Origin: an uncultured Syntrophomonadaceae bacterium
GTDB lineage: Bacteria; Bacillota; Dethiobacteria; DTU022
Reading direction: 5' to 3'
Length of the DNA stretch: 64,000 nt
Assembly (NCBI GenBank): GCA_964492615.1
Contig: CAZBKZ010000008.1
Span: forward strand, 13,865 to 77,864
Both the position numbers and the translations under genes were made by a program. This document shows, piece by piece, positions 1 through 55,360 of the stretch. Below the pieces are notes generated by a model, which was given only the letters and a program-made list of their open reading frames with translations, ran no database searches and had not been told where the DNA came from. Position 1 is the stretch's first letter; every line of letters begins with the position of its first letter.

Positions 1-812
1 ACCCGGGAGGGAGCGTCAAAGACAGAATTGGCCTGAACATGTTATATTCTGCAGAAAGAGAAGGCATAATAGGTCCCGGCTCGGTAATAATTGAGCCGAC
101 CAGTGGGAATACAGGGATAGCGCTGGCCATGGTTAGTGCAGTAAAGGGATACAAGTGTATTCTGGTTATGCCTGAAACTATGAGCGATGAACGTAAAATT
201 ATGCTCAGGGCCCTGGGAGCCGAGCTGATTCTCACTTCTGGCAGCCTGGGGATGAAGGGAGCGGTGGAACAAGCCGAAAAACTGGCTACAGAAAACAGTA
301 ATTACTTTATGCCGCTGCAGTTTGCGAACCCGGCCAACCCCGAAATACACTCAGTTACGACAGCTGAAGAAATATGGTCTGATACAGACGGCAGGATTGA
401 CATATTGGTTTCGGGAGTCGGAACAGGCGGTACTATAACGGGAGTAGCCCGCGAACTGAAAAAACGAAAACCTTCGCTTTTGGTTGTTGCGGTGGAACCA
501 GATGAATCTCCGGTTTTATCAGGCGGAACACCGGCTGCGCATAAAATACAGGGTTTAGGTGCAGGTTTCATCCCCGAAGTTCTGCAGGTTGACCTGATTG
601 ACGAAATAGTCAGGGTCAAAGGAGAAGAGGCTGTTGAGACAGCGCGTAAAATGATCAGGGAAGAAGGTTTGCTGGTCGGAATTTCTGCAGGTGCGGCTGT
701 TCATGCGTCTTTGAAAATTACTGAAAAAGATGAAAACAAAAATAAACTAATCGTTGTTATCTGCCCCGACCTGGCGGAAAGATACATCTCAACGGCCTTA
801 TTTGATAGTTGA
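1..812 (+). CDS. cysK: Cysteine synthase A (O-acetylserine sulfhydrylase), 5'-partial; continues upstream of the window
   Basis: The frame is open from base 1 and reads ...[10 protein letters not shown] upstream of the listed ORF. TSGNTG PLP-binding motif, [10 protein letters not shown] loop and overall CysK-like sequence. Confidence 0.85.
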
Positions 813-851
813 AACTGAAAGAGCACAGTTTCATACAAGGAGGTTACGGTT

Positions 852-1268
852 ATGCAGCTCTCCACGAAAGTGCGCTATGCGATAAGGGCTATGGTTGACA
901 TGGCCATGCAGCCCGGGGGTGAACCGGTTAAACTAAAAGATATAGCCTCAAGACAAGATATCTCTCTCAAATACCTGGAGCAGGTAATGCTTCCTCTTCG
1001 TGTTAATGCGTTTGTCGTAACAAGGAAAGGAAGCCGGGGTGGTTACACCTTAACCAGGCCTCCCCGCGAGATAACCCTGCTTGAAATAGTTAAAAGCGTG
1101 GAAGGCTCTGTAGCCCCGGTAGAATGTGCTGATGATCCGAACGTCTGTGAACGTTCGGAGCATTGTTCAACACACCTGGCCTGGATTGGTCTTAAAGAAG
1201 CGATAGAAGATCAGCTTGGCCGGATCAGCCTGGAAGATTTGGCAGAGAAGCAGCAGCTTTTATATTAA
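852..1268 (+). CDS. Rrf2-family transcriptional regulator (CymR/IscR-like)
   Basis: The N-terminal MQLSTKVRYAIRAMVDMA winged-helix segment is typical of the Rrf2 family. It lies immediately downstream of cysK. RBS GGAGG precedes the ATG. Confidence 0.75.
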   Translation: MQLSTKVRYAIRAMVDMAMQPGGEPVKLKDIASRQDISLKYLEQVMLPLRVNAFVVTRKGSRGGYTLTRPPREITLLEIVKSVEGSVAPVECADDPNVCERSEHCSTHLAWIGLKEAIEDQLGRISLEDLAEKQQLLY

Positions 1269-1311: not shown

Positions 1312-3801
1312 GTGAGTATAATGAAAAAAGTTTCATTATTAATAGAAGGTATGCATTGTGCCTCCTGTTCCAACAGCCTGGAAAAGGCTCTGAAGGATAC
1401 GGAAGGTGTGATTGAAGTAGCGGTTAACCTGGCAATGGCCAAGGCTTATTTGCAGTATGATCCTGAGCTGATTTCTATGGATCAATTATTACAAAAAGTG
1501 GAGGATGCCGGTTTTAAAGGAAAACCTGAAGATGATCCATCACTGAAAGAAAATGTTTTCCTGGTGGAAGGGATGAGTTGCGCCTCATGTGCAGTGGGCC
1601 TTGAATCAAAATTACAGAATGTGGATGGTGTTAACGGGGCTAGGGTAAATTTTGCTTCCGGAAAAGCATATGTCAGTTATGATCATTCCCTGGTCAGCAG
1701 GGAGAAACTGGTTTCTCTGATCAACGAATCAGGTTACATGGTTGTCAATGGCGCGGAAAATAGTGAAACAGCAAAACAGGATACTACTGCTGAAGATCGT
1801 GAAGAAACGCTAGTCAGGCAGGCAGCTGCCAGAATGTGGCTTGCCATTGTCTTTGCTTCCGTGATCATGGTCTTGATGATGATCAATATGTTTATTCAGC
1901 CTTTGCCAGGCTATTTTGCAATTTCGGTGGTTTTGGCTTTTCCGGCAGTATTCGTTGCCGGCTGGGAAACTCACCGGGGAACTGTAAAAGCCCTGAAACG
2001 TTTCAGCGCGAACATGGATACGCTGGTAACCCTTGGTTCTGCCCTGCCATACCTCTTAAGTTTATTAAACTTTTTTTATCCGCTGACTACATTTGTTGAA
2101 ATGGCTGCCAGTATTATGGCGCTGCACCTGGTTGGCCGTTACCTGGAAACCAGGGCCAGGGGCAGGGCTTCCCAGGCAATTAAAAAACTGCTGGCTCTGG
2201 GAGCGAAAACAGCCCGAATCATTGTTAATGGCCGGGAAATAGATGTTCCACTGGAGCAGTTGCAGGCAGGACATGAAATGCTGGTTAAACCAGGTGAAAA
2301 AATACCTACCGACGGGGTAGTTCTTGAAGGCAGCAGCAGCGTCGACGAATCGATGGCTACAGGTGAGTCAATACCTGTTGAGAAGATGATAGGCAGTGAA
2401 GTGATTGGGGCAACTATTAACGGGCAAGGTTTTCTCAGGGTCAGGGCAACCAGGGTTGGTAAAGATACTTTTTTGGCCCAGGTAATCAGGCTGGTTGAAG
2501 AGGCCCAGGGTTCCAAGGTGCCGATCCAGGAGTTTGCCGATCGGGTTACCGGTTATTTTGTTCCGACCGTGATTCTGATTGCCCTGGCATCATTTATATC
2601 CTGGCTTCTTTTCCCAGGTTTCCATTTGGCGGTAATCAGATTTTTCGACTTGCCCTGGACCAATATTGAAGCACCTGTGCTAACCCTGGCTTTTATGGCA
2701 GCGACTGCTGTTCTGGTAATTTCTTGCCCCTGTGCTCTGGGTCTTGCCACTCCGACAGCTTTGATGGTAGGCAGTGGAATGGGAGCGGAACAGGGGATAC
2801 TAATCCGCAGCGGCGAGGCAATTCAGACAATGAAAGATGTTAAAATAATAGCTTTTGATAAAACAGGCACCCTGACCAGGGGTCAGCCGGCAGTAACAGA
2901 TTTCAGCACTTTTAACGGTTTTGCTCACAAATCCGTACTTCTTCTGGCGGCAAGCCTGGAAGCTGTTTCAGAGCACCCGCTGGCTGGAGCCATAGTGGAC
3001 AGGTCCAGGAAGGAAGGGTTAGACAGCCTTCCTGTCAGCGAGTTTAAGGCAGCAACAGGACAGGGAATCAGCGGTTTCGTTGAAGGGAAAATGGTTCTTG
3101 CCGGCAGTCGACGTTTTATGAAATCCGCCGGGGTCTCTTTCGATAGTGTGGAAGACCAAATAACATTATATGAAGAAGAGGGAAAAAGTATTGTGTTAAT
3201 TGCTGTTGGCGGAGCGCTGGCCGGTATAGCTGCTGTCGCTGACACCCTGAAAGACGAGGCGGTCCAAACAGTGAAAGAGCTGAAAAATATGGGCCTTAAA
3301 ACTGCAATGATAACCGGGGATAATCATGTTACGGCAGAAGCGATAGGGTTGCGGATTGGAATAAATGAAGTTATCTCAGAAGTTCTTCCGGAAGGAAAGG
3401 TTGATGCAGTAAAAAAACTGCAGTCAGAACACGGGCTGATAGCCATGGTTGGAGATGGGATTAATGATGCTCCCGCTTTAAAACAGTCAAATGTGGGGAT
3501 AGCGATCGGGACCGGAACTGATGTGGCGATTGAAGCTGCAGACATTACCCTGGTGAGCGGTAACCTTGGGTCGGTAATATCAGCTATTAAATTATCGCGG
3601 GCTACATTTAATAAAATACGCCAGAATTATTTTTGGGCCTGGTTTTATAACAGTATTGCAATTCCTGTTGCTTTTCTGGGGCTGCTGCATCCGATTATCG
3701 GTGCCGGTGCGATGGCCCTGAGTTCCCTGAATGTGGTGCTGAACTCACTGCGTCTCAAAAAGACTAACCTGGCTCCCGACTATAGAGGAAACAAATCCTG
3801 A
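1312..3801 (+). CDS. copA: Copper-translocating P-type ATPase with two N-terminal heavy-metal-associated (HMA) domains
   Basis: Two HMA motifs ([12 protein letters not shown] and [12 protein letters not shown]), CPC transmembrane metal site, DKTGTLT phosphorylation motif, GDGINDAP hinge; 829 aa. Confidence 0.9.
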
Positions 3802-3841: not shown

Positions 3842-3878
3842 AAAGACCTGCTTAAATAGAGCGGGTCTTTGTTTATTT
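3842..3878 (+). terminator. Rho-independent terminator after copA
   Basis: Hairpin aaaagacctgc...gcgggtctttt followed by a tttgtttattt run. Confidence 0.55.
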
Positions 3879-4030
3879 AATAACTCTTCACACTTTTTTG
3901 ATTGATTTAACTGAAGGTCACCGGCTTTTTTACCAGGGGATTATAAAAATTATTTATTTGGCAGGAATGATTATTAAAATATAGAATATAATTATAAACA
4001 AATATATAATTATACAGGAGGTTATCGGTT

Positions 4031-4627
4031 ATGAGTGTAAAAGTAGGCCAAAAAGCACCTGACTTTGAAGCAAACGTCTTTCATGAAGGGGCTTTTAAAA
4101 AAGTTAAACTTTCGGATTACCAGGGCAAATGGGTGATTATTTGTTTCTATCCCGGTGATTTCACCTTTGTCTGACCGACAGAATTGGCGTCAGTTGCCGC
4201 CAGGTATAAAGAAATCAAGGATCTTGATGCTGAAGTTTTATCCTGTAGTGTAGACAGCCAGTTTACTCATAAGATCTGGCAGGAAGTTGAACTTTCGAAG
4301 ATGGTTGAAGGAGGCGTTCCATACCCGATGATGGCAGATACCGGGGGGAAAATCGGTACCCTTTACGGTGTCTATGACGAAGAAGGCGGAGTTAATGTGC
4401 GCGGACGTTTCCTGATCGATCCCGACGGAGTTATCCAGGCTATGGAAGTTTTAACTCCCCCGGTTGGGCGCAATGTTGATGAGCTGATTCGTCAGCTTCA
4501 GGCATTCCAACATGTTCGTAAGACAAACGAGCCTACTCCTTCAGGCTGGAAACCGGGCAAGAAGTCGCTTAAGCCAGGGCCGGACCTTGTTGGCCGGGTT
4601 TGGGAAGCCTGGAAAATCGGAGACTAA
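4031..4627 (+). CDS. prxU: Selenocysteine-containing peroxiredoxin (AhpC/Tsa family, PrxU-like); UGA at 4172-4174 read as Sec at codon 48
   Basis: The ATG at 4031 has an AGGAGG RBS. Translation reads ...FYPGDFTFV-[TGA][13 protein letters not shown]..., so the UGA sits exactly where the peroxidatic Cys of the FTFVCPTE motif belongs. The listed ORF 4184..4627 is in the same frame and supplies the rest of the peroxiredoxin fold. A SECIS-like hairpin lies at 4184-4203. Confidence 0.7.
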
Positions 4628-4640
4628 AGGAGTATTGAAA

Positions 4641-4991
4641 GTGCTGTATTTTTATTGTGTTAAAACCTGAACAACCTGTCGTAAAGCGAAAGCGTGGCTT
4701 TCGGAAAGAAGGGTAACTTTTTCATATCGCGATATTATCAGGGAACCGCTGACGGAAGAAGAACTGATCAGGATGGCTTCCCTTAAGGATTTAACTGTTA
4801 AGGAGCTGTTAAACCCCGGGAGTACTGTTTTTAAAAAAATGGGCTTAAAGATCGAAGCGCTTGATGATAAACAGGCAGCAACTTTAATCAACGAAAATCC
4901 CAGGATCATGCGTAGACCTCTTTTAAGTAATGGTCGGGACCTGGTGATAGGTTTTGATGTGGAAGAGTATTCAACCCTGGCGGGTGTATAA
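4641..4991 (+). CDS. ArsC/Spx-family (YffB-like) thioredoxin-fold protein with selenocysteine; UGA at 4668-4670 as codon 10 gives a U-T-T-C redox motif
   Basis: GTG at 4641 has an AAAGGAG RBS. Translation reads VLYFYCVKT-[TGA]-TTCRKAKAWLSERRVTFSYRDI..., and continues in frame into the listed ORF 4773..4991. The Spx/ArsC family has CxxCRKAxxWL at this position. A perfect 7-bp hairpin CGAAAGC-gtg-GCTTTCG lies at 4687-4703, 17 nt after the UGA, consistent with a bacterial SECIS. Confidence 0.6.
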
Positions 4992-5015
4992 CCCTTAATA
5001 AATACTGTTCAAAAA

Positions 5016-5050
5016 GCGGCCCCGGTTTCTAAAAAACCGGGGCTGTTTTA
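5016..5050 (+). terminator. Rho-independent terminator after the selenoprotein pair
   Basis: GC-rich hairpin gcggccccggttt/aaaccggggctgt followed by ttta. Confidence 0.6.
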
Positions 5051-5119
5051 TTGACGTAACCTTCATAAACTAAACTTATTCGGTTAATATATTAGTATAA
5101 TGCTGGTGGAGGCGACACT

Positions 5120-5650
5120 ATGAAATTGGAATGCAGGGGTATAAGTGTTGAATGTGTAAAAGGGGATATAGCTTCCCAGGTTGACCTGGAAGCGGTTGTT
5201 AATGCTGCTAATGCTGAACTGCTACCTGGTGGCGGGGTGGCCGGAGCCCTCCACAGGGCAGCCGGGCCGGGATTAGAAAAGGAAGGAAGGCAACTGGCCC
5301 TGCTCAAGCCTGGCCAGGCAGTGATTACCGGGGGGCATAATCTTCCCAATCGCTTTGTCATTCACTGCCTTGGGCCGGTATATGGTATCGATAAACCGGA
5401 AAAAATTCTGCTGGCCGATTGCTATCGTAATGCCCTTAAACTTGCCGAACAACATCAAATTAGCAGTATAGCTTTTCCATCAATCTCAACCGGAATCTTT
5501 GGTTACCCGATGGCAGAGGCTGCTACAATAGCTTTTAAGACGGTTGGAGAAATGCTACCGTTTTTAAAACGGGTTAAACTGATTCGTTTTGTCCTATATG
5601 ATGCTGAAGCCCTGCAGCTACACGCTGAAATAATGAACGGTATTTTATAA
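5120..5650 (+). CDS. Macro-domain protein (O-acetyl-ADP-ribose deacetylase, MacroD/YmdB-like)
   Basis: VVNAANAELLPGGGVAGALHRAAG and SIAFPSISTGIFGYP motifs are typical of macro domains; 176 aa. Confidence 0.75.
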   Translation: MKLECRGISVECVKGDIASQVDLEAVVNAANAELLPGGGVAGALHRAAGPGLEKEGRQLALLKPGQAVITGGHNLPNRFVIHCLGPVYGIDKPEKILLADCYRNALKLAEQHQISSIAFPSISTGIFGYPMAEAATIAFKTVGEMLPFLKRVKLIRFVLYDAEALQLHAEIMNGIL

Positions 5651-45787: not shown

Positions 45788-47329
45788 ATGAGTAGAACCG
45801 GTATACTGATTAACAAGCCATATAAAAAGCTCAGCAGGGAGCAGGTTGAACTTATTGATCAAACCTCTCTTGAGCTCTTACAAACCCCCGGGATATTATG
45901 CTATCACGAAGAAAGTACCACCCTTTTTGAAAAGGAAGGCGCAAAAATAAAAAAAACCAAAGAAGGTGAACATGATGCCTGGTGGATTAGTATTCCACCC
46001 GGAGTTGTAAAGAGTGCTCTTGAGTCTGCTCCGGCCAGGGTTACCCTGGGTGCCCGCAATCCCGAAAATAGGGTAGTTTTAGACGCAGAAGGAAACAGGG
46101 TCTACTTCGGCACTGGTTCTGAAACTAATTACTGGCTGGAAATCGAGCCGGAGGAATTTACTTCTGATAAAGATGGGGCCAGGAGAACATTTGCGGTTAT
46201 GAAAAAAAGCCGGGGCAGCCTTAACCTGCTCTGCCGATCAGCTCATCTGGCAGAACAGCTGGAAAATCTCGATTTTTTTATCCGCAATGTTAATATTCAG
46301 GATTCTGATATTACAACAGGCAATAAAGACGTCAACGTATTTTTTGCTTCACTTAACCATCTGACTAAACCTGTTATCGGTGGGGTTGCTGATTATGAGC
46401 AGCTGGAAAAAATTGTTAGAATAGCTGAAATAATTGCCGGAGGAAGAGAGCAATTGAGGGAAAATCCCCTGGTTGCATTCATAACCAGCGTTATAAAAAG
46501 CCCGCTGCAGGTTGTTGATGATACCGCAGAAAAGTTAATTGCCATTGCCAGGCTCGGATTGCCTGTTGTTATTTCTACTTCTCCTCAGGGAGGATCAACA
46601 GCGCCTATCGATATGCTGGGTATGGTTGCCCAGGTTAATGCCGAAGCCCTGGCCGGTATAACCATTAATCAGCTTGCCAGTCGCGGCGCACCGGTGATTT
46701 ACGGGGCTGTCCCAGTCAGAGCCAGGATGGATGACTTGCATGACATGTACGGGGTCCCTGAATTCTGTCAATACACTATGGCCTGTGCACAGATGGCCAG
46801 GTATTACGGGGTGCCCTGTTATTCCACGGCAGGGGTTGGCGATGCCAAGGTTCCTGGTATTCAGGCAACAATGGAAAAAATGTACACCCATAGCATGGTT
46901 CCGCTTGCTGCTCCTGACCTGGTGCATTATTCTTTTGGGCTTCTTGACAAGACTCAGACTTATAGTCCGGAACAGGCAGTGCTGGATAATCATCAGATTG
47001 GCATGGTAAAATTTTTGCAAAGAGAACAGGAAGTTAATAGCAATTCAGCAGCTAAAACTAAGAAAATGATAGCTGACGTTATGCACAGCCCATACAGGAT
47101 GTATGCCCGTTATGCCAGGGGGATGCTCAGGCGTGGGGAAATTTTCGCCGGATTTCCTTTTGAAGGGAAATTGGAAGATCAGGACCAGACTTTGCTTAAG
47201 GTGCATGAAAAATTTGCTGAATTGGAAGCGGCTAAACCTAAATACCTGCCGGAAGATACCTGTAAATTAATCTTTAATGAAATATCCGGGCTTCTTCCGC
47301 GGCTTAATCCTTATGGGGAGGTTAAATAA
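45788..47329 (+). CDS. MttB-superfamily methyltransferase lacking pyrrolysine (glycine betaine/quaternary-amine:corrinoid methyltransferase-like, MtgB-type)
   Basis: 513-aa uninterrupted ORF (no in-frame TAG) with MttB-family TIM-barrel sequence features. Directly followed by a corrinoid protein gene. Confidence 0.8.
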   Translation: MSRTGILINKPYKKLSREQVELIDQTSLELLQTPGILCYHEESTTLFEKEGAKIKKTKEGEHDAWWISIPPGVVKSALESAPARVTLGARNPENRVVLDAEGNRVYFGTGSETNYWLEIEPEEFTSDKDGARRTFAVMKKSRGSLNLLCRSAHLAEQLENLDFFIRNVNIQDSDITTGNKDVNVFFASLNHLTKPVIGGVADYEQLEKIVRIAEIIAGGREQLRENPLVAFITSVIKSPLQVVDDTAEKLIAIARLGLPVVISTSPQGGSTAPIDMLGMVAQVNAEALAGITINQLASRGAPVIYGAVPVRARMDDLHDMYGVPEFCQYTMACAQMARYYGVPCYSTAGVGDAKVPGIQATMEKMYTHSMVPLAAPDLVHYSFGLLDKTQTYSPEQAVLDNHQIGMVKFLQREQEVNSNSAAKTKKMIADVMHSPYRMYARYARGMLRRGEIFAGFPFEGKLEDQDQTLLKVHEKFAELEAAKPKYLPEDTCKLIFNEISGLLPRLNPYGEVK

Positions 47330-48028
47330 ATGAGCAGTGATCTGCTTGAATTAATTGTAGAGAATGTTTTACAGGGTCGTCGTAACAGTGATGATGAAGG
47401 CATTGAGGAAGGAGATTTTGGTCAACCAGGGGTTGCTGAGCTGGTTGCCAGGGCCCTTGAAGATGGCATTAATACGGAACAGGTTCTCATAGATGGGCTC
47501 AGCCGTGGGATGCAGATGGTCGGTGACAAGTACGAAAGCGGTGAATACTTTATTCCTGATATGCTCACTGCAGCCGAAGCAGTGGAAGCCGGAATGGCTG
47601 TTCTGGAACCGTACCTGGTCAGCGGAGGTGAAAAGGCCGGCCGGGGTAAAATAGTAATGGCAACGGTTGAAAAAGATCTGCATGATATTGGCAAGAACCT
47701 TGTAACCATAATGCTCAAGGGGGCAGGCTTTAACGTGATTGACCTGGGAATTGATGTGCCGGCTGCCCGAGTGGTTGAGGTAGCTGAGCAGGAAGGCGCT
47801 GCCGTAATCGGTCTTTCGGCTTTACTTAACACTACAATGTCCAACATGAGTGAAGTGGTTAAGCTGCTTGAGGAGAAAGGGCTTCATGACCGCATCAAGG
47901 TATTAATTGGCGGTGCACCCGTATCCGATGATTTTGCAAGGGAAATCGGTGCAGATAGTTATGGCAAAGATGCTTTTGCGGCGATAAAAGAAGCAGAAAA
48001 ACTAATTGTATCCGGAGGGAATGTATAA
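47330..48028 (+). CDS. Cobalamin-binding corrinoid protein (MtbC/MtgC-like)
   Basis: N-terminal B12-binding-2 helical cap plus a Rossmann-like B12-binding domain with DxHxxG (DLHDIGKNLV); 232 aa. Confidence 0.8.
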   Translation: MSSDLLELIVENVLQGRRNSDDEGIEEGDFGQPGVAELVARALEDGINTEQVLIDGLSRGMQMVGDKYESGEYFIPDMLTAAEAVEAGMAVLEPYLVSGGEKAGRGKIVMATVEKDLHDIGKNLVTIMLKGAGFNVIDLGIDVPAARVVEVAEQEGAAVIGLSALLNTTMSNMSEVVKLLEEKGLHDRIKVLIGGAPVSDDFAREIGADSYGKDAFAAIKEAEKLIVSGGNV

Positions 48029-53905: not shown

Positions 53906-55360
53906 ATGAAAAGTCCGATCTATGAAGGAGGCAGTTACCGTGTTCTTTCAGACAGGGAGATCGGCCAGATACACGAAACGTCGCTTCGGGTTTTGGAAAC
54001 AGTAGGGTTTGAAATTAATTTTCCACCGGCCCTTAATATGTTTGAAGAAAAAGGTGCTGAGGTTGACCGGACCCGAAGCAGGGTTTACCTGCCCAGGGAG
54101 CTGGTGACTCGCTCTATTAAACAGGCTCCGTCTGAATTCATGTTTTATGGTCGGGAAGAAGGTAAAAGTATTACAGTTGGAGGGAAAAGAGTTCACTTCG
54201 GAACCGGCGGTCTGGCTCTGTATGTTCTGGACCTGGAGCGTAATAAACGCCCGGGGACCCTTAAAGATGTTGCTGATCTGGCTCGTTTGGCTGATAATCT
54301 CGAAAACCTCGACTTTTTTATCATTCCTGTATATCCTCACGATATTAATATTGATACTGTTGATATCAACACTAAGTACCAGGCCCTGCTGCATACCGGC
54401 AAACCGGTTATGGGCGGGATATTTAACCTCCAGGGGCTGGAGGATATGGTTGCTATTGCCTCAATGATTGCCGGAGGGTTGGAGAACCTCAGAAAAAGGC
54501 CGTTCCTTGGGTTTATATCCTCAATCACCAGCCCTTTGAAAATAAGTGCGGATCATGCAGAATATATAATGAAAATTGCCGATTACGGTTTACCGCTGGC
54601 CACTTCAACGGCGCCTGCAGCCGGAGCAACTGCTCCCATTACCCTGGCCGGAACTCTGGTTCAGCAAAATGCTGAGGCATTGATGGGTGTGGTTATCTCT
54701 CAGCTGGTTAATCCGGGAACACCGGTTCTATACAGTGCTGTACCGGTTACCATGGATATGCGCACCATGTCATTTTTAATGGGCAGCATTGAATCAGGTT
54801 TAATGAATGCAGCAATTACCCAGATGGCCCATTTTTATCGTTTGCCCTGTTACCTAACTGTGGGGACAACCGATTCAAAACTTCCTGATGCCCAGGCTGC
54901 GCACGAAGGGGCTTCATCGGCCATGCTTGCAGCACTGGCCGGAGGCAATTTCATTCATGAAGCTTTTGGCATGCTTGATGGGGCTATGACAGTATCTTAT
55001 GCCCAGTATATCATTGATAATGATATTGTAGGCAGTTGTCTCAGAACCCTGAGAGGTATTGAGGTAGATGAAGATACCCTGGCTTATGAAATTATTAAAA
55101 AAGTCGGCCCTGGAGGGAACTACCTGGGAGAAGAACATACAGTTAAGTACGTGCGCACTGAAAGCTTTTCGCCCAGGGCCAGCGACCGGCAGCAATACCA
55201 GCACTGGTTTGATGCGGGCAGCAAGGATAGTTGGAAACGAGCGGAAGAGGTGGTTGAGCAGCTGCTTGGCGAGCCTTTCGTAACTAAAATTCCTGTTGAT
55301 CTGGATCAATTAATCAGGGAGCAATTTCCCGACCTTGTTGATATTAAAGAAAATGAATAG
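53906..55360 (+). CDS. Second MttB-superfamily methyltransferase lacking pyrrolysine (paralog of 45788..47329)
   Basis: 484-aa uninterrupted ORF that aligns with the first MttB-family protein (e.g. ...GTGG.A.YVLDLE... / LENLDFFI motifs shared). Confidence 0.8.
   Translation: MKSPIYEGGSYRVLSDREIGQIHETSLRVLETVGFEINFPPALNMFEEKGAEVDRTRSRVYLPRELVTRSIKQAPSEFMFYGREEGKSITVGGKRVHFGTGGLALYVLDLERNKRPGTLKDVADLARLADNLENLDFFIIPVYPHDINIDTVDINTKYQALLHTGKPVMGGIFNLQGLEDMVAIASMIAGGLENLRKRPFLGFISSITSPLKISADHAEYIMKIADYGLPLATSTAPAAGATAPITLAGTLVQQNAEALMGVVISQLVNPGTPVLYSAVPVTMDMRTMSFLMGSIESGLMNAAITQMAHFYRLPCYLTVGTTDSKLPDAQAAHEGASSAMLAALAGGNFIHEAFGMLDGAMTVSYAQYIIDNDIVGSCLRTLRGIEVDEDTLAYEIIKKVGPGGNYLGEEHTVKYVRTESFSPRASDRQQYQHWFDAGSKDSWKRAEEVVEQLLGEPFVTKIPVDLDQLIREQFPDLVDIKENE

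What the first reader, a model, noticed from the sequence alone, without database searches (positions are those of the whole stretch)
4641..4991. Second, adjacent selenoprotein: ArsC/Spx-family protein with a U-T-T-C redox motif and a near-perfect SECIS-like hairpin
From GTG 4641 (AAAGGAG RBS) the frame reads VLYFYCVKT, then TGA (4668-4670), then TTCRKAKAWLSERRVTFSYRDI..., and runs in frame into the listed ORF 4773..4991. In Spx/ArsC/YffB proteins this position carries CxxC directly before the RKAxxWL helix. Here the first Cys is a UGA, giving UxxC. Seventeen nt downstream lies a perfect 7-bp hairpin CGAAAGC-GUG-GCUUUCG (4687-4703) with a G/U apical loop, which is SECIS-like. Two neighbouring Sec genes suggest a dedicated redox couple: a Sec-peroxiredoxin and a Sec-thiol-disulfide partner. 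The peroxiredoxin has no obvious resolving Cys, so the neighbour could be its reductant. The protein could also be a Sec-dependent Spx-type regulator, which would be unusual.
Basis: partly seen in the sequence, partly recalled or inferred. Interest (0 to 1): 0.75.

Follow-up and report, generated by a model that had tools for sequence, protein, structure and literature searches.

The report
Mis-annotated Spx/ArsC-like selenoprotein beside PrxU
This is a real but routinely mis-annotated gene for a small selenocysteine-containing redox protein of the Spx/ArsC fold, sharing an operon with a selenocysteine peroxiredoxin; proteins of this kind were already predicted in 2008, so it is a new member, not a new class.

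Summary
From GTG 4641 the frame reads VLYFYCVKT-UGA(4668-4670)-TTCRKAKAWL... to TAA 4991. A perfect 7-bp hairpin lies at 4687-4703. The full translation is an ArsC/Spx-fold protein, and the UGA aligns with Cys10 of Spx.

The UGA is present in 36 of 36 related genes whose N-terminus could be read. The hairpin codons are frozen at synonymous sites: 0.17 bit against 1.39 bit elsewhere in the gene. One orthologue carries a compensatory G-C to A-U change. Distant relatives keep a hairpin at the same place with different stems. TGA is otherwise a normal stop in this window. This is therefore a genuine Sec gene, called as a 72-aa fragment in public databases.

It is not a canonical Spx. Gly52 and most of the RNA-polymerase contact surface are changed, and the C-terminal tail is absent. 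It is also not an obligate PrxU partner. prxU has been deleted with at least five different breakpoints while spxU and the shared promoter were kept. Distant Sec forms stand alone, and PrxU in other lineages has no such neighbour.

Most likely it is a peroxide-stress-induced selenol/thiol redoxin that can serve PrxU among other targets. UxxC selenoproteins of the ArsC family matching cd03032 were listed in 2008, so this is a new member of a known kind.

The parts
3842..3870 (+). Terminator-like hairpin after copA. It marks the upstream boundary of the prxU-spxU unit.
   Evidence: 12-pair stem followed by a T-run.
3958..3987 (+). Predicted sigma-70-type promoter of the operon: -35 TTGGCA (3958-3963), 18-nt spacer, -10 TAGAAT (3982-3987).
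   Evidence: 10 of 12 matches. The -10 hexamer T(A/T)GAAT is conserved in 16 loci.
3961..3988 (+). Conserved upstream element GCAGGAAtgATTATTAAaAtATAGAATA overlapping -35 to -10. It is a candidate operator for an unknown regulator.
   Evidence: alignment of 16 loci; the motif is present in 23 loci and is retained in front of spxU where prxU is deleted.
4031..4627 (+). prxU, a selenocysteine peroxiredoxin of 198 aa with the Sec codon TGA at 4172-4174. The canonical resolving Cys is replaced by Thr.
   Evidence: NF040737, 362 bits against a cutoff of 270.
4185..4202 (+). Conserved hairpin downstream of the prxU UGA (UGGCG-UCAGUUGC-CGCCA). It is the putative PrxU SECIS.
   Evidence: The sequence is identical in the prxU loci compared. 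It fits the bSECIS loop rule only loosely.
4626..4632 (+). Ribosome-binding site AAAGGAG of spxU, overlapping the prxU stop codon.
   Evidence: It lies 8 nt before GTG 4641. A start codon (ATG in 23 of 30) is at the same position in orthologues.
4641..4991 (+). spxU, a full-length Spx/ArsC-fold selenoprotein gene of 116 codons with active site U10-T-T-C13 and invariant Cys6.
   Evidence: Public gene calls give only the 72-aa fragment 4773-4991.
4668..4670 (+). In-frame UGA, read as selenocysteine codon 10.
   Evidence: It aligns with Cys10 of Spx. TGA is conserved in 36 of 36 related genes read. The nearest Cys forms, P0009 and P0013, have Cys here. TGA is a normal stop for 14 of 42 long ORFs in the window.
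4677..4679 (+). Codon of Cys13, the resolving residue of the UxxC motif.
   Evidence: invariant in 31 of 31 clade sequences.
4687..4703 (+). SECIS hairpin: a 7-bp stem with apical loop GUG, 23 nt between the UGA and the loop.
   Evidence: The bSECIS criteria are quoted.
5019..5043 (.). GC-rich hairpin with T-runs on both sides, 28 nt after the spxU stop. The scan listed it only on the minus strand; I read it as bidirectional and as ending the bicistronic unit.
   Evidence: listed on the minus strand; perfect 7-bp hairpin on the plus strand starting at 5022, followed by TGTTTTATT.

Best explanation
Window 4641-4991 encodes a 116-residue selenoprotein, here called SpxU, with the ArsC/Spx thioredoxin-like fold.

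Shown:
- The UGA at codon 10 sits exactly where Spx and other family members have the first Cys of CxxC.
- It is followed by a small hairpin that is conserved at the RNA level and meets the bacterial SECIS geometry.
- The gene is co-transcribed with the Sec-peroxiredoxin gene prxU. One promoter (3958-3987) and a terminator-like hairpin (5019-5043) bracket the pair.

Inferred:
- During translation SelB with Sec-tRNA(Sec) binds the hairpin and inserts Sec at UGA 4668.
- The protein cycles between a selenol/thiol state (U10, C13) and an intramolecular selenenylsulfide. It acts as a peroxide-stress-induced redoxin.
- The exposed Sec10 attacks an oxidised partner, such as the selenenic acid of PrxU, which lacks the canonical resolving Cys. 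Cys13 then resolves the mixed bond. A general thiol system would re-reduce SpxU.
- PrxU is a likely client in this organism but not the only one and not an obligatory one.

Sub-confidences:
- Genuine Sec gene with a SECIS: about 0.93.
- Redoxin in peroxide defence rather than transcription factor: about 0.65.
- Direct electron exchange with PrxU in this organism: about 0.45.
For: Family and active site:
- Pfam ArsC E 9e-18 over residues 5-112.
- TIGR01617 scores 89 bits against a cutoff of 75.
- Spx structures match at E 1e-19 and align without gaps, with U10 on C10 and C13 on C13.
- The AF2 model of orthologue P0002 has pLDDT 94.8 and TM 0.90 to Spx 3gfk.

Sec decoding:
- TGA is conserved in 36 of 36 readable relatives.
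- Cys occupies this position in the nearest non-Sec relatives.
- The bSECIS criteria of PMC13188914 are met: loop GUG, 7-bp stem, 23-nt spacing, regional MFE -13.6 kcal/mol.
- Synonymous sites are frozen in the hairpin only.
- L016 has a compensatory pair.
- L042-L045 have different stems at the same place.
- TGA is a normal stop elsewhere in the window.
- A second Sec gene lies 14 nt upstream.

Operon:
- Promoter, terminators and the 13-nt intergenic gap.
- prxU is directly upstream in nearly all loci with enough flank.
- PrxU lacks the resolving Cys in every lineage examined.

Redoxin rather than Spx:
- G52 is T/S, L46 is A, L76 is D/E, L79 is A and Y80 is A.
- There is no C-terminal tail.

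Precedent:
- The small redoxin Cp9 is encoded between a reductase and a peroxiredoxin and reduces that peroxiredoxin (PMC3720550).
Against: - No sel genes or tRNA-Sec lie in the 64-kb window, so Sec capacity is inferred only from the two recoded genes.
- The hairpin's energy is not exceptional. Alone it is -6.7 kcal/mol, weaker than the -7.5 of the bSECIS rule.
- Column-wise covariation inside the clade rests on a single compensatory event.
- No Rfam model recognises the hairpin.
- No member of the ArsC/Spx family is known to reduce a peroxiredoxin.
- No reductase gene is nearby.
- prxU has been lost repeatedly while spxU was kept.
- Stand-alone spxU genes and spxU-less prxU genes are common.
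- The many prxU-spxU loci share the wider gene order (copA ... macro-domain gene, gatCAB), so they count as roughly one evolutionary event.
Confidence: 0.6

Rival explanations
1. SpxU is a Sec-dependent Spx-type transcription regulator. Oxidation of U10-C13, either directly by peroxide or relayed from PrxU-SeOH as in the Orp1-Yap1 type of relay, switches it into a form that binds RNA polymerase and turns on an oxidative-stress regulon.
For: - The best sequence and structure matches are Spx.
- TIGR01617 'Spx/MgsR family' is passed.
- The RRP motif (Spx RPI), T11, R14 and K15 are kept, and position 60 is K/R in most Sec forms.
- The gene is kept under the conserved stress-type promoter even where prxU is deleted, as would be expected of a regulator.
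- Stand-alone genes in variable contexts fit a global regulator.
Against: - The Spx-defining Gly52 is Thr/Ser/Asn in 28 of 30 clade genes.
- The hydrophobic alphaCTD contact centre is largely replaced: A46, D76, A79 and A80.
- Spx's last 28 residues contact sigma-A and are the YjbH/ClpXP target; SpxU ends at 116 aa, so that C-terminal tail is absent.
- Spx equivalog models are failed: 89 against a cutoff of 123, and 66 against 159.
- The structure is equally close to non-regulatory ArsC-family proteins: 3gkx TM 0.90 and YffB TM 0.85.
- No Sec-dependent transcription factor is known (my own knowledge; nothing was found).
Confidence: 0.15
2. SpxU is the dedicated, obligate reductant of PrxU, forming a two-selenoprotein peroxidase couple.
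For: - The bicistronic arrangement is conserved in more than 20 loci.
- PrxU has Thr in place of the resolving Cys.
- Both proteins use Sec.
- The Cp9/Cp20 system is a precedent.
Against: - At least five different prxU deletion breakpoints keep the promoter, spxU, its UGA and the hairpin: L013, L015, L018, L020/L022 and L025.
- L042-L045 have no PrxU-type gene next to spxU; L042 has only a distant (33% identity) Prx-like ORF about 2.7 kb downstream.
- PrxU at 71-78% identity over the full protein in three other lineages has no spxU within 3 kb and also lacks the resolving Cys. PrxU therefore works without an adjacent SpxU.
- PrxU has a universally conserved Cys38 that could serve in resolution.
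Confidence: 0.1
3. The TGA is a true stop. The locus is a decayed or split ArsC-family gene, and the hairpin follows from the conserved KAKAWLS peptide or from chance.
For: - Public annotations call only a 72-aa fragment.
- Hairpin energy is not above shuffles.
- No sel genes lie in the window.
- The L007 lineage does carry a frameshifted copy.
Against: - The nine codons upstream of the TGA are conserved as protein (MLxFYCxPT) with an RBS and start codon in all loci.
- A pseudogene would not keep TGA, and only TGA, in 36 of 36 genes that are 30-100% identical.
- Ala16, Ala18 and Leu20 use one codon each in 30 genes, while other Ala and Leu codons vary freely.
- The Cys homologue encodes KAKAWL as GCGAAGGCCTGGCTG, which forms no hairpin.
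- L042 changed the peptide to KAEAGLL while keeping a 7-bp stem.
Confidence: 0.03
4. The gene encodes a Sec-containing arsenate reductase (ArsC proper).
For: - Pfam ArsC family hit.
- Sec forms of ArsC (UxxS) are known.
- U10 corresponds to the catalytic Cys12 of ArsC. This rests on the structural match and on my own knowledge of ArsC.
Against: - TIGR00014 arsC scores 33 bits against a cutoff of 106.
- The motif is UxxC, not UxxS.
- Position 60 is Gly here, where ArsC needs Arg60 (my own knowledge).
- No ars genes are nearby.
Confidence: 0.03

Closest known systems
'Arsenate reductase 2' predicted selenoprotein family (CDD cd03032, UxxC) of the Global Ocean Sampling selenoproteome (Zhang & Gladyshev 2008, PMC2398784), and the earlier 'ArsC-like' selenoproteins of Desulfotalea and Desulfuromonas (PMC1794560)
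   Same: Both are ArsC-superfamily proteins in which Sec replaces the first Cys of CxxC. The 2008 family matches cd03032, which as I recall is the Spx-subfamily model. Both are known only from sequence, and function is unknown.
   Different: - I could not compare sequences directly, so identity of the subfamily is inferred from the CDD label.
- The published sets are marine and deltaproteobacterial. This clade is from anaerobic Firmicutes-like MAGs, many from soda-lake sediment samples.
- No link to PrxU was reported.
Spx of Bacillus subtilis (PDB 1Z3E, 3GFK, 7F75), the RNA-polymerase-binding redox-switch regulator
   Same: - The fold is the same: TM 0.90, rmsd 1.8 A for the orthologue model.
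- The alignment is gapless over residues 1-110 at 31% identity.
- The redox pair sits at positions 10 and 13.
- The R91-R92-P93 motif, T11, R14 and K15 are kept.
   Different: - Sec replaces Cys10.
- Gly52 is replaced by Thr/Ser.
- The alphaCTD contact residues L46, L76, L79 and Y80 are replaced.
- The C-terminal tail is absent: Spx's last 28 residues contact sigma-A and are the YjbH/ClpXP target, and SpxU stops at 116 aa against 131.
- There is an extra invariant Cys6.
- Spx equivalog models are failed.
NCBIfam NF041106 'ArsC family (seleno)protein', listed as 'arsenate reductase-like protein, UxxC' in the 2022 and 2026 reviews (PMC9312934, PMC13188914)
   Same: Both are small ArsC-family proteins with UxxC, of similar length (107-position model).
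   Different: The window protein and six other members of its subfamily score only 22-36 bits against the cutoff of 85. This is a different subfamily, with no Sec-aware curated model. That explains the truncated public annotations.
Cp34-Cp9-Cp20 system of Clostridium pasteurianum (Reynolds, Meyer & Poole 2002, as described in PMC3720550)
   Same: A small CxxC redoxin is encoded next to a peroxiredoxin and reduces it. This is the model for how SpxU could serve PrxU.
   Different: - Cp9 is an NrdH/Grx-like redoxin, not ArsC/Spx fold.
- It contains no Sec.
- Its operon includes its own reductase (Cp34), which is absent here.
PrxU of Eubacterium (Peptoclostridium) acidaminophilum (Sohling et al. 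2001, cited in PMC13188914) and NF040737
   Same: The upstream gene is a member of this family: 362 bits against a cutoff of 270, Sec at the peroxidatic position, TxxU motif.
   Different: This concerns the neighbour, not the finding itself. In three other PrxU lineages examined here there is no spxU neighbour.

Membership tests
Bacterial selenoprotein gene (Sec-UGA plus bSECIS) | In-frame UGA aligned with a conserved redox Cys of homologues (Cys/Sec pair) | tested here: met
   U10 aligns with Cys10 of Spx. The nearest Cys forms, P0009 and P0013, read FYCV..C-S-T-C.
Bacterial selenoprotein gene (Sec-UGA plus bSECIS) | UGA-containing orthologues in other organisms, with the coding sequence conserved on both sides of the UGA | tested here: met
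   36 of 36 related genes have TGA at this codon: 31 distinct clade genes plus L042-L045. About 50 of the 150 best 50%-identity clusters look Sec-type, being N-truncated or called with W.
Bacterial selenoprotein gene (Sec-UGA plus bSECIS) | bSECIS model: 3-9 nt apical loop, 4-16 bp upper stem, G in the first two loop positions, 16-37 nt from UGA to loop, MFE <= -7.5 kcal/mol (PMC13188914) | tested here: met
   Loop GUG, 7 bp, 23 nt. MFE is -13.6 kcal/mol for UGA+48 nt, but only -6.7 for the conserved hairpin alone. Outgroup loops GUC, GGG and CGGGU also comply.
Bacterial selenoprotein gene (Sec-UGA plus bSECIS) | RNA-level selection on the hairpin (synonymous constraint or covariation) | tested here: met
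   Codon entropy is 0.17 against 1.39 bit. One compensatory pair and two G-U changes occur, and 97.4% of cells are paired against 22-59% when slid. Distant members have different stems.
Bacterial selenoprotein gene (Sec-UGA plus bSECIS) | Sec machinery (selA, selB, selC, selD) in the same genome | not testable with these tools
The co-operonic PrxU Sec gene is indirect support.
Bacterial selenoprotein gene (Sec-UGA plus bSECIS) | TGA is not a sense codon through an alternative genetic code | tested here: met
   TGA ends 14 of 42 long ORFs in the window, including cysK, copA, gatA and gatB. The 'W' in some database proteins is an artefact of the gene caller.
ArsC superfamily (Pfam PF03960) | Profile match above the gathering score over the whole domain | tested here: met
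   64.8 bits against a cutoff of 24, residues 5-112. The AF2 model of the orthologue matches ArsC-family structures at TM 0.85-0.90.
Spx/MgsR family, broad sense (NCBIfam TIGR01617) | Score above the curated cutoff | tested here: met
   89 bits against 75.05. Other Sec forms score 63.5-94.6.
Spx sensu stricto (RNAP-binding regulator) | CXXC redox switch at positions 10 and 13 | tested here: met
   U10-T-T-C13, with Sec in place of Cys10.
Spx sensu stricto (RNAP-binding regulator) | Gly52 and the hydrophobic alphaCTD contact centre (L46, G52, V71, M74, L76, L79; PMC8501982) | tested here: not met
   T52 here; in the clade T 15, S 10, N 3, G 1. Also A46, D76, A79 and A80.
Spx sensu stricto (RNAP-binding regulator) | RPI motif (R92-P93-I94) | tested here: met
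   R91-R92-P93-L94 is invariant in 30 of 30. The motif is also common to other ArsC-family proteins, so it discriminates weakly.
Spx sensu stricto (RNAP-binding regulator) | C-terminal tail (Spx's last 28 residues) that contacts sigma-A and is recognised by YjbH/ClpXP | tested here: not met
   The protein ends at residue 116. Spx has 131 residues, and its last 28 form this region.
Spx sensu stricto (RNAP-binding regulator) | Equivalog model cutoffs (NF002459, NF009210, NF009885) | tested here: not met
   89 against 123, 65.8 against 159, and 64.3 against 152.
Spx sensu stricto (RNAP-binding regulator) | Binding to RNA polymerase alphaCTD | not testable with these tools
   This needs a binding assay. 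rpoA of this organism is not in the window.
NCBIfam NF041106 ArsC family (seleno)protein | Score above the curated cutoff of 85 bits | tested here: not met
   33.6 bits. Six other subfamily members score 22.7-35.7 bits.
Arsenate reductase ArsC (TIGR00014) | Equivalog cutoff | tested here: not met
   33.1 bits against a cutoff of 106. In addition, the position aligned with the arsenate-binding Arg60 of ArsC (my own knowledge) is Gly60 here, and no ars genes are nearby.
Peroxiredoxin-dedicated redoxin (Cp9-type arrangement) | Redoxin gene in one operon with the peroxiredoxin gene | tested here: met
   A 13-nt gap, one predicted promoter and flanking terminator-like hairpins. The arrangement is conserved in more than 20 loci.
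Peroxiredoxin-dedicated redoxin (Cp9-type arrangement) | Consistent co-occurrence of the two genes, with neither kept without the other | tested here: not met
   prxU is deleted while spxU is kept in L013, L015, L018, L020-22, L025 and L033. spxU occurs without a PrxU-type neighbour in L042-45, and prxU without spxU in L046-50.
Peroxiredoxin-dedicated redoxin (Cp9-type arrangement) | Cognate reductase gene in the operon | tested here: not met
   The neighbours are copA, rrf2, a macro-domain gene, gatCAB or a long ORF I read by eye as a THUMP-type methyltransferase (not scanned).
Peroxiredoxin-dedicated redoxin (Cp9-type arrangement) | Supports peroxiredoxin turnover in vitro | not testable with these tools
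   This needs an enzyme assay.

The most novel reading that the evidence does not exclude
PrxU and SpxU form a two-selenoprotein peroxide-sensing relay. PrxU-SeOH oxidises Sec10 of SpxU. The resulting selenenylsulfide form of this tail-less Spx-like protein then binds RNA polymerase, through an interface that has co-evolved away from the Bacillus one. It controls an oxidative-stress regulon that includes its own promoter element GCAGGAAtCATTATTAA. This would be the first transcription factor whose sensor residue is selenocysteine. It would also explain why spxU and the promoter survive repeated loss of prxU.
Probability: 0.1. Interest if true: 0.85.

Novelty: new member of a known kind. Interest (0 to 1): 0.45.

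Why it matters
1. Annotation. A whole subfamily, about 50 of the 150 nearest 50%-identity clusters, is stored in public databases as N-terminally truncated fragments or as proteins with a spurious Trp. No curated Sec-aware model covers it: NF041106 is failed, and TIGR01617 is not Sec-aware. A dedicated model would repair many records.

2. Biology. This is a compact natural example of a bacterial SECIS written inside a highly conserved peptide (KAKAWLS). Protein and RNA constraints visibly trade off: the A18T and L20F changes in L016 keep a base pair, and KAEAGLL in Desulfosporosinus-type genes keeps the stem.

3. Function. The operon with the resolving-Cys-less PrxU, and the repeated loss of prxU but not spxU, give a directly testable question. 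Is a Sec-bearing Spx-fold protein a peroxiredoxin reductant, a stand-alone peroxide scavenger, or a regulator? The ArsC/Spx/YffB family still has many members of unknown function, so an answer would be informative beyond this clade.

Tried and rejected
- **Folding energy as evidence.** The z-score is only -0.5, so I did not use it.
- **Rfam.** The gathering search gave no match at this locus; its single hit in the window is PYLIS_3 at 54866-54965. At E <= 10 on 3900-5100 there is no SECIS family, and most weak hits fall on the terminator.
- **A longer lower stem of the SECIS.** It appears in single-sequence folds but is not conserved column-wise in 30 genes. I rejected it as part of the element.
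- **Search for sel genes, tRNA-Sec or further TGA-interrupted ORFs in the window.** I found none apart from prxU and spxU.
- **Organism name through cluster look-up.** No names were returned. The only label is a 67%-identical orthologue in an 'uncultured Syntrophomonadaceae' MAG.
- **Spx -44 'AGCA' element.** The conserved AGCA of the promoter motif lies at about -34 to -31, not -44. I rejected it as an Spx box.
- **PerR box.** There is only a partial resemblance, so this is left open.
- **AF2 and Foldseek.** They confirm the fold but cannot separate Spx from other ArsC-family proteins.
- **Arsenate reductase and alternative genetic code.** I rejected both.
Full report
**1. Observation**

AAAGGAG lies at 4626-4632 and overlaps the prxU stop codon. 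GTG is at 4641. The reading is VLYFYCVKT, then TGA at 4668-4670, then TTCRKAKAWLSERRVTFSYRDI..., in frame into the listed ORF 4773-4991 and ending at TAA 4989-4991. The hairpin CGAAAGC-GUG-GCUUUCG occupies 4687-4703.

The upstream gene 4031-4627 reads through a TGA at 4172-4174. It is PrxU by the NCBIfam equivalog model (362 bits, cutoff 270).

**2. Family**

With Cys substituted for the UGA, the 116-residue product matches several profiles:
- Pfam ArsC PF03960 at E 9e-18 over residues 5-112, so across the UGA.
- The broad NCBIfam model TIGR01617 'Spx/MgsR family' at 89 bits, cutoff 75.

The best solved structures by sequence are Spx proteins (E about 1e-19). They align without a single gap over residues 2-110, so the UGA falls on Cys10 and Cys13 on Cys13. 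An AlphaFold model of a 55%-identical orthologue is confident (pLDDT 94.8). It superposes on Spx at TM 0.90 and rmsd 1.8 A. It superposes almost equally well on other ArsC-family proteins (3gkx, YffB, ArsC), so the fold does not discriminate within the family.

**3. Is the UGA decoded as selenocysteine?**

Public gene calls give only the 72-residue C-terminal fragment. Some callers read the TGA as Trp; the DNA shows TGA in those cases.

I collected DNA for relatives from three sources:
- One genome locus.
- 31 metagenome loci found through the motif P[KR]IMRRPLL, which lies 80 codons away from the UGA and is therefore unbiased with respect to it.
- Four more distant genes.

Every gene whose N-terminus could be read has TGA at the same codon. 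That is 31 distinct clade genes plus L042-L045. The nine preceding codons (MLxFYCxPT), the start codon and the RBS are conserved.

Two anomalous loci are not counted here. L007 carries the TGA but is frameshifted. L041 lacks the N-terminal part altogether.

The nearest non-Sec relatives have Cys at this position (P0009 and P0013). TGA terminates 14 of 42 long ORFs in the window, so this is not an alternative genetic code.

**4. The hairpin**

Folding energy alone is unremarkable. The z-score is -0.5, and the hairpin alone is -6.7 kcal/mol. A perfect 7-bp hairpin in a given 20-nt slot has roughly a 1% chance expectation.

The comparative evidence is strong:
- In 30 distinct clade genes that are 50-67% identical as proteins, codons Ala16, Ala18 and Leu20 are invariably GCG, GCG and CTT. 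Other Ala and Leu codons of the same genes vary freely.
- Mean codon entropy is 0.17 bit for the hairpin codons against 1.39 bit for 47 other conserved degenerate codons.
- A Cys-type homologue encodes the same KAKAWL peptide as GCGAAGGCCTGGCTG, which forms no hairpin.
- L016 has a compensatory G-C to A-U change, bought with two amino-acid changes, A18T and L20F.
- L017 and L024 each have a G-U pair.
- 97.4% of cells pair, against 22-59% when the partner is slid.

More distant Sec forms keep a hairpin at the same distance with unrelated stems:
- GCAGAAG-CGGGU-CUUCUGC in a Desulfosporosinus MAG, where the peptide has become KAEAGLL.
- AGCCAA-GUC-UUGGCU.
- AGCCAA-GGG-UUGGCU.

[quoted passage not shown] Rfam has no model that recognises the hairpin.

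I conclude with about 0.93 confidence that this is a genuine selenoprotein gene. The one untested link is the Sec machinery. No sel gene or tRNA-Sec lies in the window.

**5. How widespread is it?**

I ran an exhaustive profile search of 1.84 billion cluster representatives. Of the 150 best hits, about 50 are N-truncated or carry W at the Sec position, and so are 30 of the best 50. All sampled cases proved to have TGA. This is a large, systematically mis-annotated Sec subfamily.

Its members score 22-36 bits on the only curated Sec-aware ArsC-type model, NF041106, whose cutoff is 85.

**6. Operon and context**

A predicted promoter (TTGGCA, 18-nt spacer, TAGAAT; 3958-3987) and two terminator-like hairpins (3842-3870 and 5019-5043) bracket prxU-spxU. 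The scan listed the downstream hairpin on the minus strand only. I read it as acting on the plus strand too, because T-runs follow it on both sides.

A motif GCAGGAAtCATTATTAAnAnATAGAATA overlaps the promoter and is conserved in 16 aligned loci. A looser form of it is present in 23 loci.

The flanking genes are cysK, an Rrf2-family regulator and copA upstream, and a macro-domain gene and gatCAB downstream. This wider order is also conserved. The many prxU-spxU loci are therefore largely one inherited arrangement, not independent evidence.

**7. Relation to PrxU**

PrxU has Thr where typical 2-Cys peroxiredoxins have the resolving Cys (EPTPSGW against EVCPAGW). This holds in every lineage examined. 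Cys38 is universally conserved, and Cys72 is conserved in most.

Three results argue against an obligate couple:
- Within the clade, prxU has been internally deleted at least five times with different breakpoints: L013, L015, L018, L020/L022 and L025. Each deletion leaves the promoter motif, a remnant of the prxU 3' end, and an intact spxU with its UGA and hairpin.
- The distant Sec forms L042-L045 sit in unrelated contexts without a PrxU-type neighbour. L042 has only a distant (33% identity) Prx-like ORF about 2.7 kb downstream.
- PrxU genes of other lineages, 71-78% identical over the full protein, have no spxU within 3 kb. Their neighbours are a Fur-family gene or rubrerythrins.

**8. Regulator or redoxin?**

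The features that define Spx as an RNA-polymerase-binding regulator are the CXXC motif, Gly52, the RPI motif, an alphaCTD contact surface, and a C-terminal region (Spx's last 28 residues) that contacts sigma-A and is the YjbH/ClpXP target (PMC8501982).

What SpxU keeps:
- UxxC.
- R91-R92-P93-L94.
- T11, R14 and K15.

What SpxU lacks or changes:
- Position 52 is T/S/N rather than Gly.
- Position 46 is Ala, 76 is Asp/Glu, 79 is Ala and 80 is Ala.
- The protein ends at residue 116.
- It fails the Spx equivalog models.

As far as I know, selenocysteine is used in catalytic redox centres. The literature search found no Sec-dependent transcription factor. A small redoxin encoded beside a peroxiredoxin and reducing it has a precedent in Cp9/Cp20 of Clostridium pasteurianum (PMC3720550).

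I therefore favour a selenol/thiol redoxin expressed from a stress-type promoter. Sec10 attacks an oxidised partner, and PrxU-SeOH is the obvious one in this organism. Cys13 then resolves the mixed bond to an intramolecular selenenylsulfide, which a general thiol system re-reduces.

The same first chemical step would also underlie a PrxU-to-SpxU signalling relay. I keep that as the most novel reading not excluded, at a probability of about 0.1 (0.15 for the broader regulator rival).

**9. Comparison with the literature**

ArsC-type selenoproteins have been predicted since 2005-2008:
- 'ArsC-like' in Desulfotalea and Desulfuromonas (PMC1794560).
- 'Arsenate reductase 1' (pfam03960, UxxS) in ocean metagenomes.
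- 'Arsenate reductase 2' (cd03032, UxxC; 42 Sec and 238 Cys sequences) in ocean metagenomes (PMC2398784).

As I recall, cd03032 is the Spx-subfamily model of CDD. The 2022 and 2026 reviews list only the TIGR00014 (UxxS) and NF041106 (UxxC) types. No searchable paper links Spx with a bacterial selenoprotein or PrxU with such a neighbour.

**10. Verdict**

The kind is known. This gene is a new, well-supported member of it. Its subfamily lacks a curated model, and its operon link to PrxU is previously unremarked, clade-specific and non-obligate.

The family assignment and the SECIS call are right. The 'dedicated couple' and 'Spx regulator' readings are not supported as stated. Interest is moderate (0.45).

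Noticed in passing
window 54866-54965, inside ORF 53906-55360: The only Rfam gathering-level hit in the window is PYLIS_3, the pyrrolysine insertion sequence of mttB (52.8 bits). The MttB-family ORF that contains it has no in-frame TAG and scores 445 bits on TIGR02369, below the cutoff of 525. It is a non-pyrrolysine MttB homologue, and the PYLIS hit probably reflects coding-sequence similarity. A second MttB-like ORF (45788-47329) and an MtgC-like corrinoid protein (47330-48028) lie nearby.
   Followed up: partly
window 3961-3988; the same motif is in 23 loci (for example L001 3323-3338, L022 2367-2382): A conserved element GCAGGAAtCATTATTAAnAnATAGAATA overlaps a poor -35 and the -10 of the prxU-spxU promoter. 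It is probably an operator for an unknown regulator. PrxU loci of another lineage (L047, L048) have a Fur-family (PerR-like) gene directly upstream.
   Followed up: partly
L013 1230-1500, L015 105-282, L018 2001-2530, L020/L022 2355-2530, L025 1180-1290: There are independent internal deletions of prxU with different breakpoints, leaving the last 10 to 87 codons. L018 keeps codons 1-11 fused out of frame to codons 112-198. All retain the promoter motif and an intact spxU.
   Followed up: yes
L007 4012-4080 (GCA_003554725.1, PWHC01000497): In this lineage the spxU 5' region reads TGA-ACA-ATT-TGA, followed by an A8 run with one extra base. This gives a second TGA at the Cys13 codon plus a frameshift. 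The same 121-aa mis-framed ORF occurs in three assemblies. It is either a pseudogene or something odder, such as UxxU with frameshifting.
   Followed up: partly
window 4665-4667 (codon 9) and orthologues: The codon immediately before the Sec-UGA is ACC in 24 of 25 Thr-bearing orthologues (entropy 0.24 bit). This is the strongest synonymous constraint outside the hairpin, and it may reflect a codon-context effect on UGA recoding.
   Followed up: no
window 4656-4658 (Cys6 of SpxU); window 4142-4144 and 4244-4246 (Cys38 and Cys72 of PrxU): There are extra conserved cysteines. Cys6 is invariant in all Sec forms and in the nearest Cys forms, and is Thr in Spx. PrxU Cys38 is invariant in all lineages, and Cys72 in most. 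Their roles are unknown; they could be alternative resolving residues.
   Followed up: partly
window 39-1268 and 1312-3801; L007 1742-3196; L032 1209-1631: cysK and an Rrf2-family regulator (IscR/CymR-like, below the equivalog cutoffs) lie upstream of copA-prxU-spxU. In L007 and L032 the Rrf2 gene lies directly upstream of prxU. The copA N-terminal HMA domains pass the 'UxxU metal-binding (seleno)protein' model NF041115 but are ordinary CxxC.
   Followed up: partly
window 5120-5650 and most related loci: A macro-domain (O-acetyl-ADP-ribose deacetylase-like) gene follows spxU in the majority of loci, behind its own terminator and intergenic region. This is conserved synteny of unknown significance.
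   Followed up: no
L041 900-1120: This is a spxU relative lacking the whole N-terminal part. It has no UxxC, and the match starts at residue 21. It is probably a truncated pseudogene.
   Followed up: no
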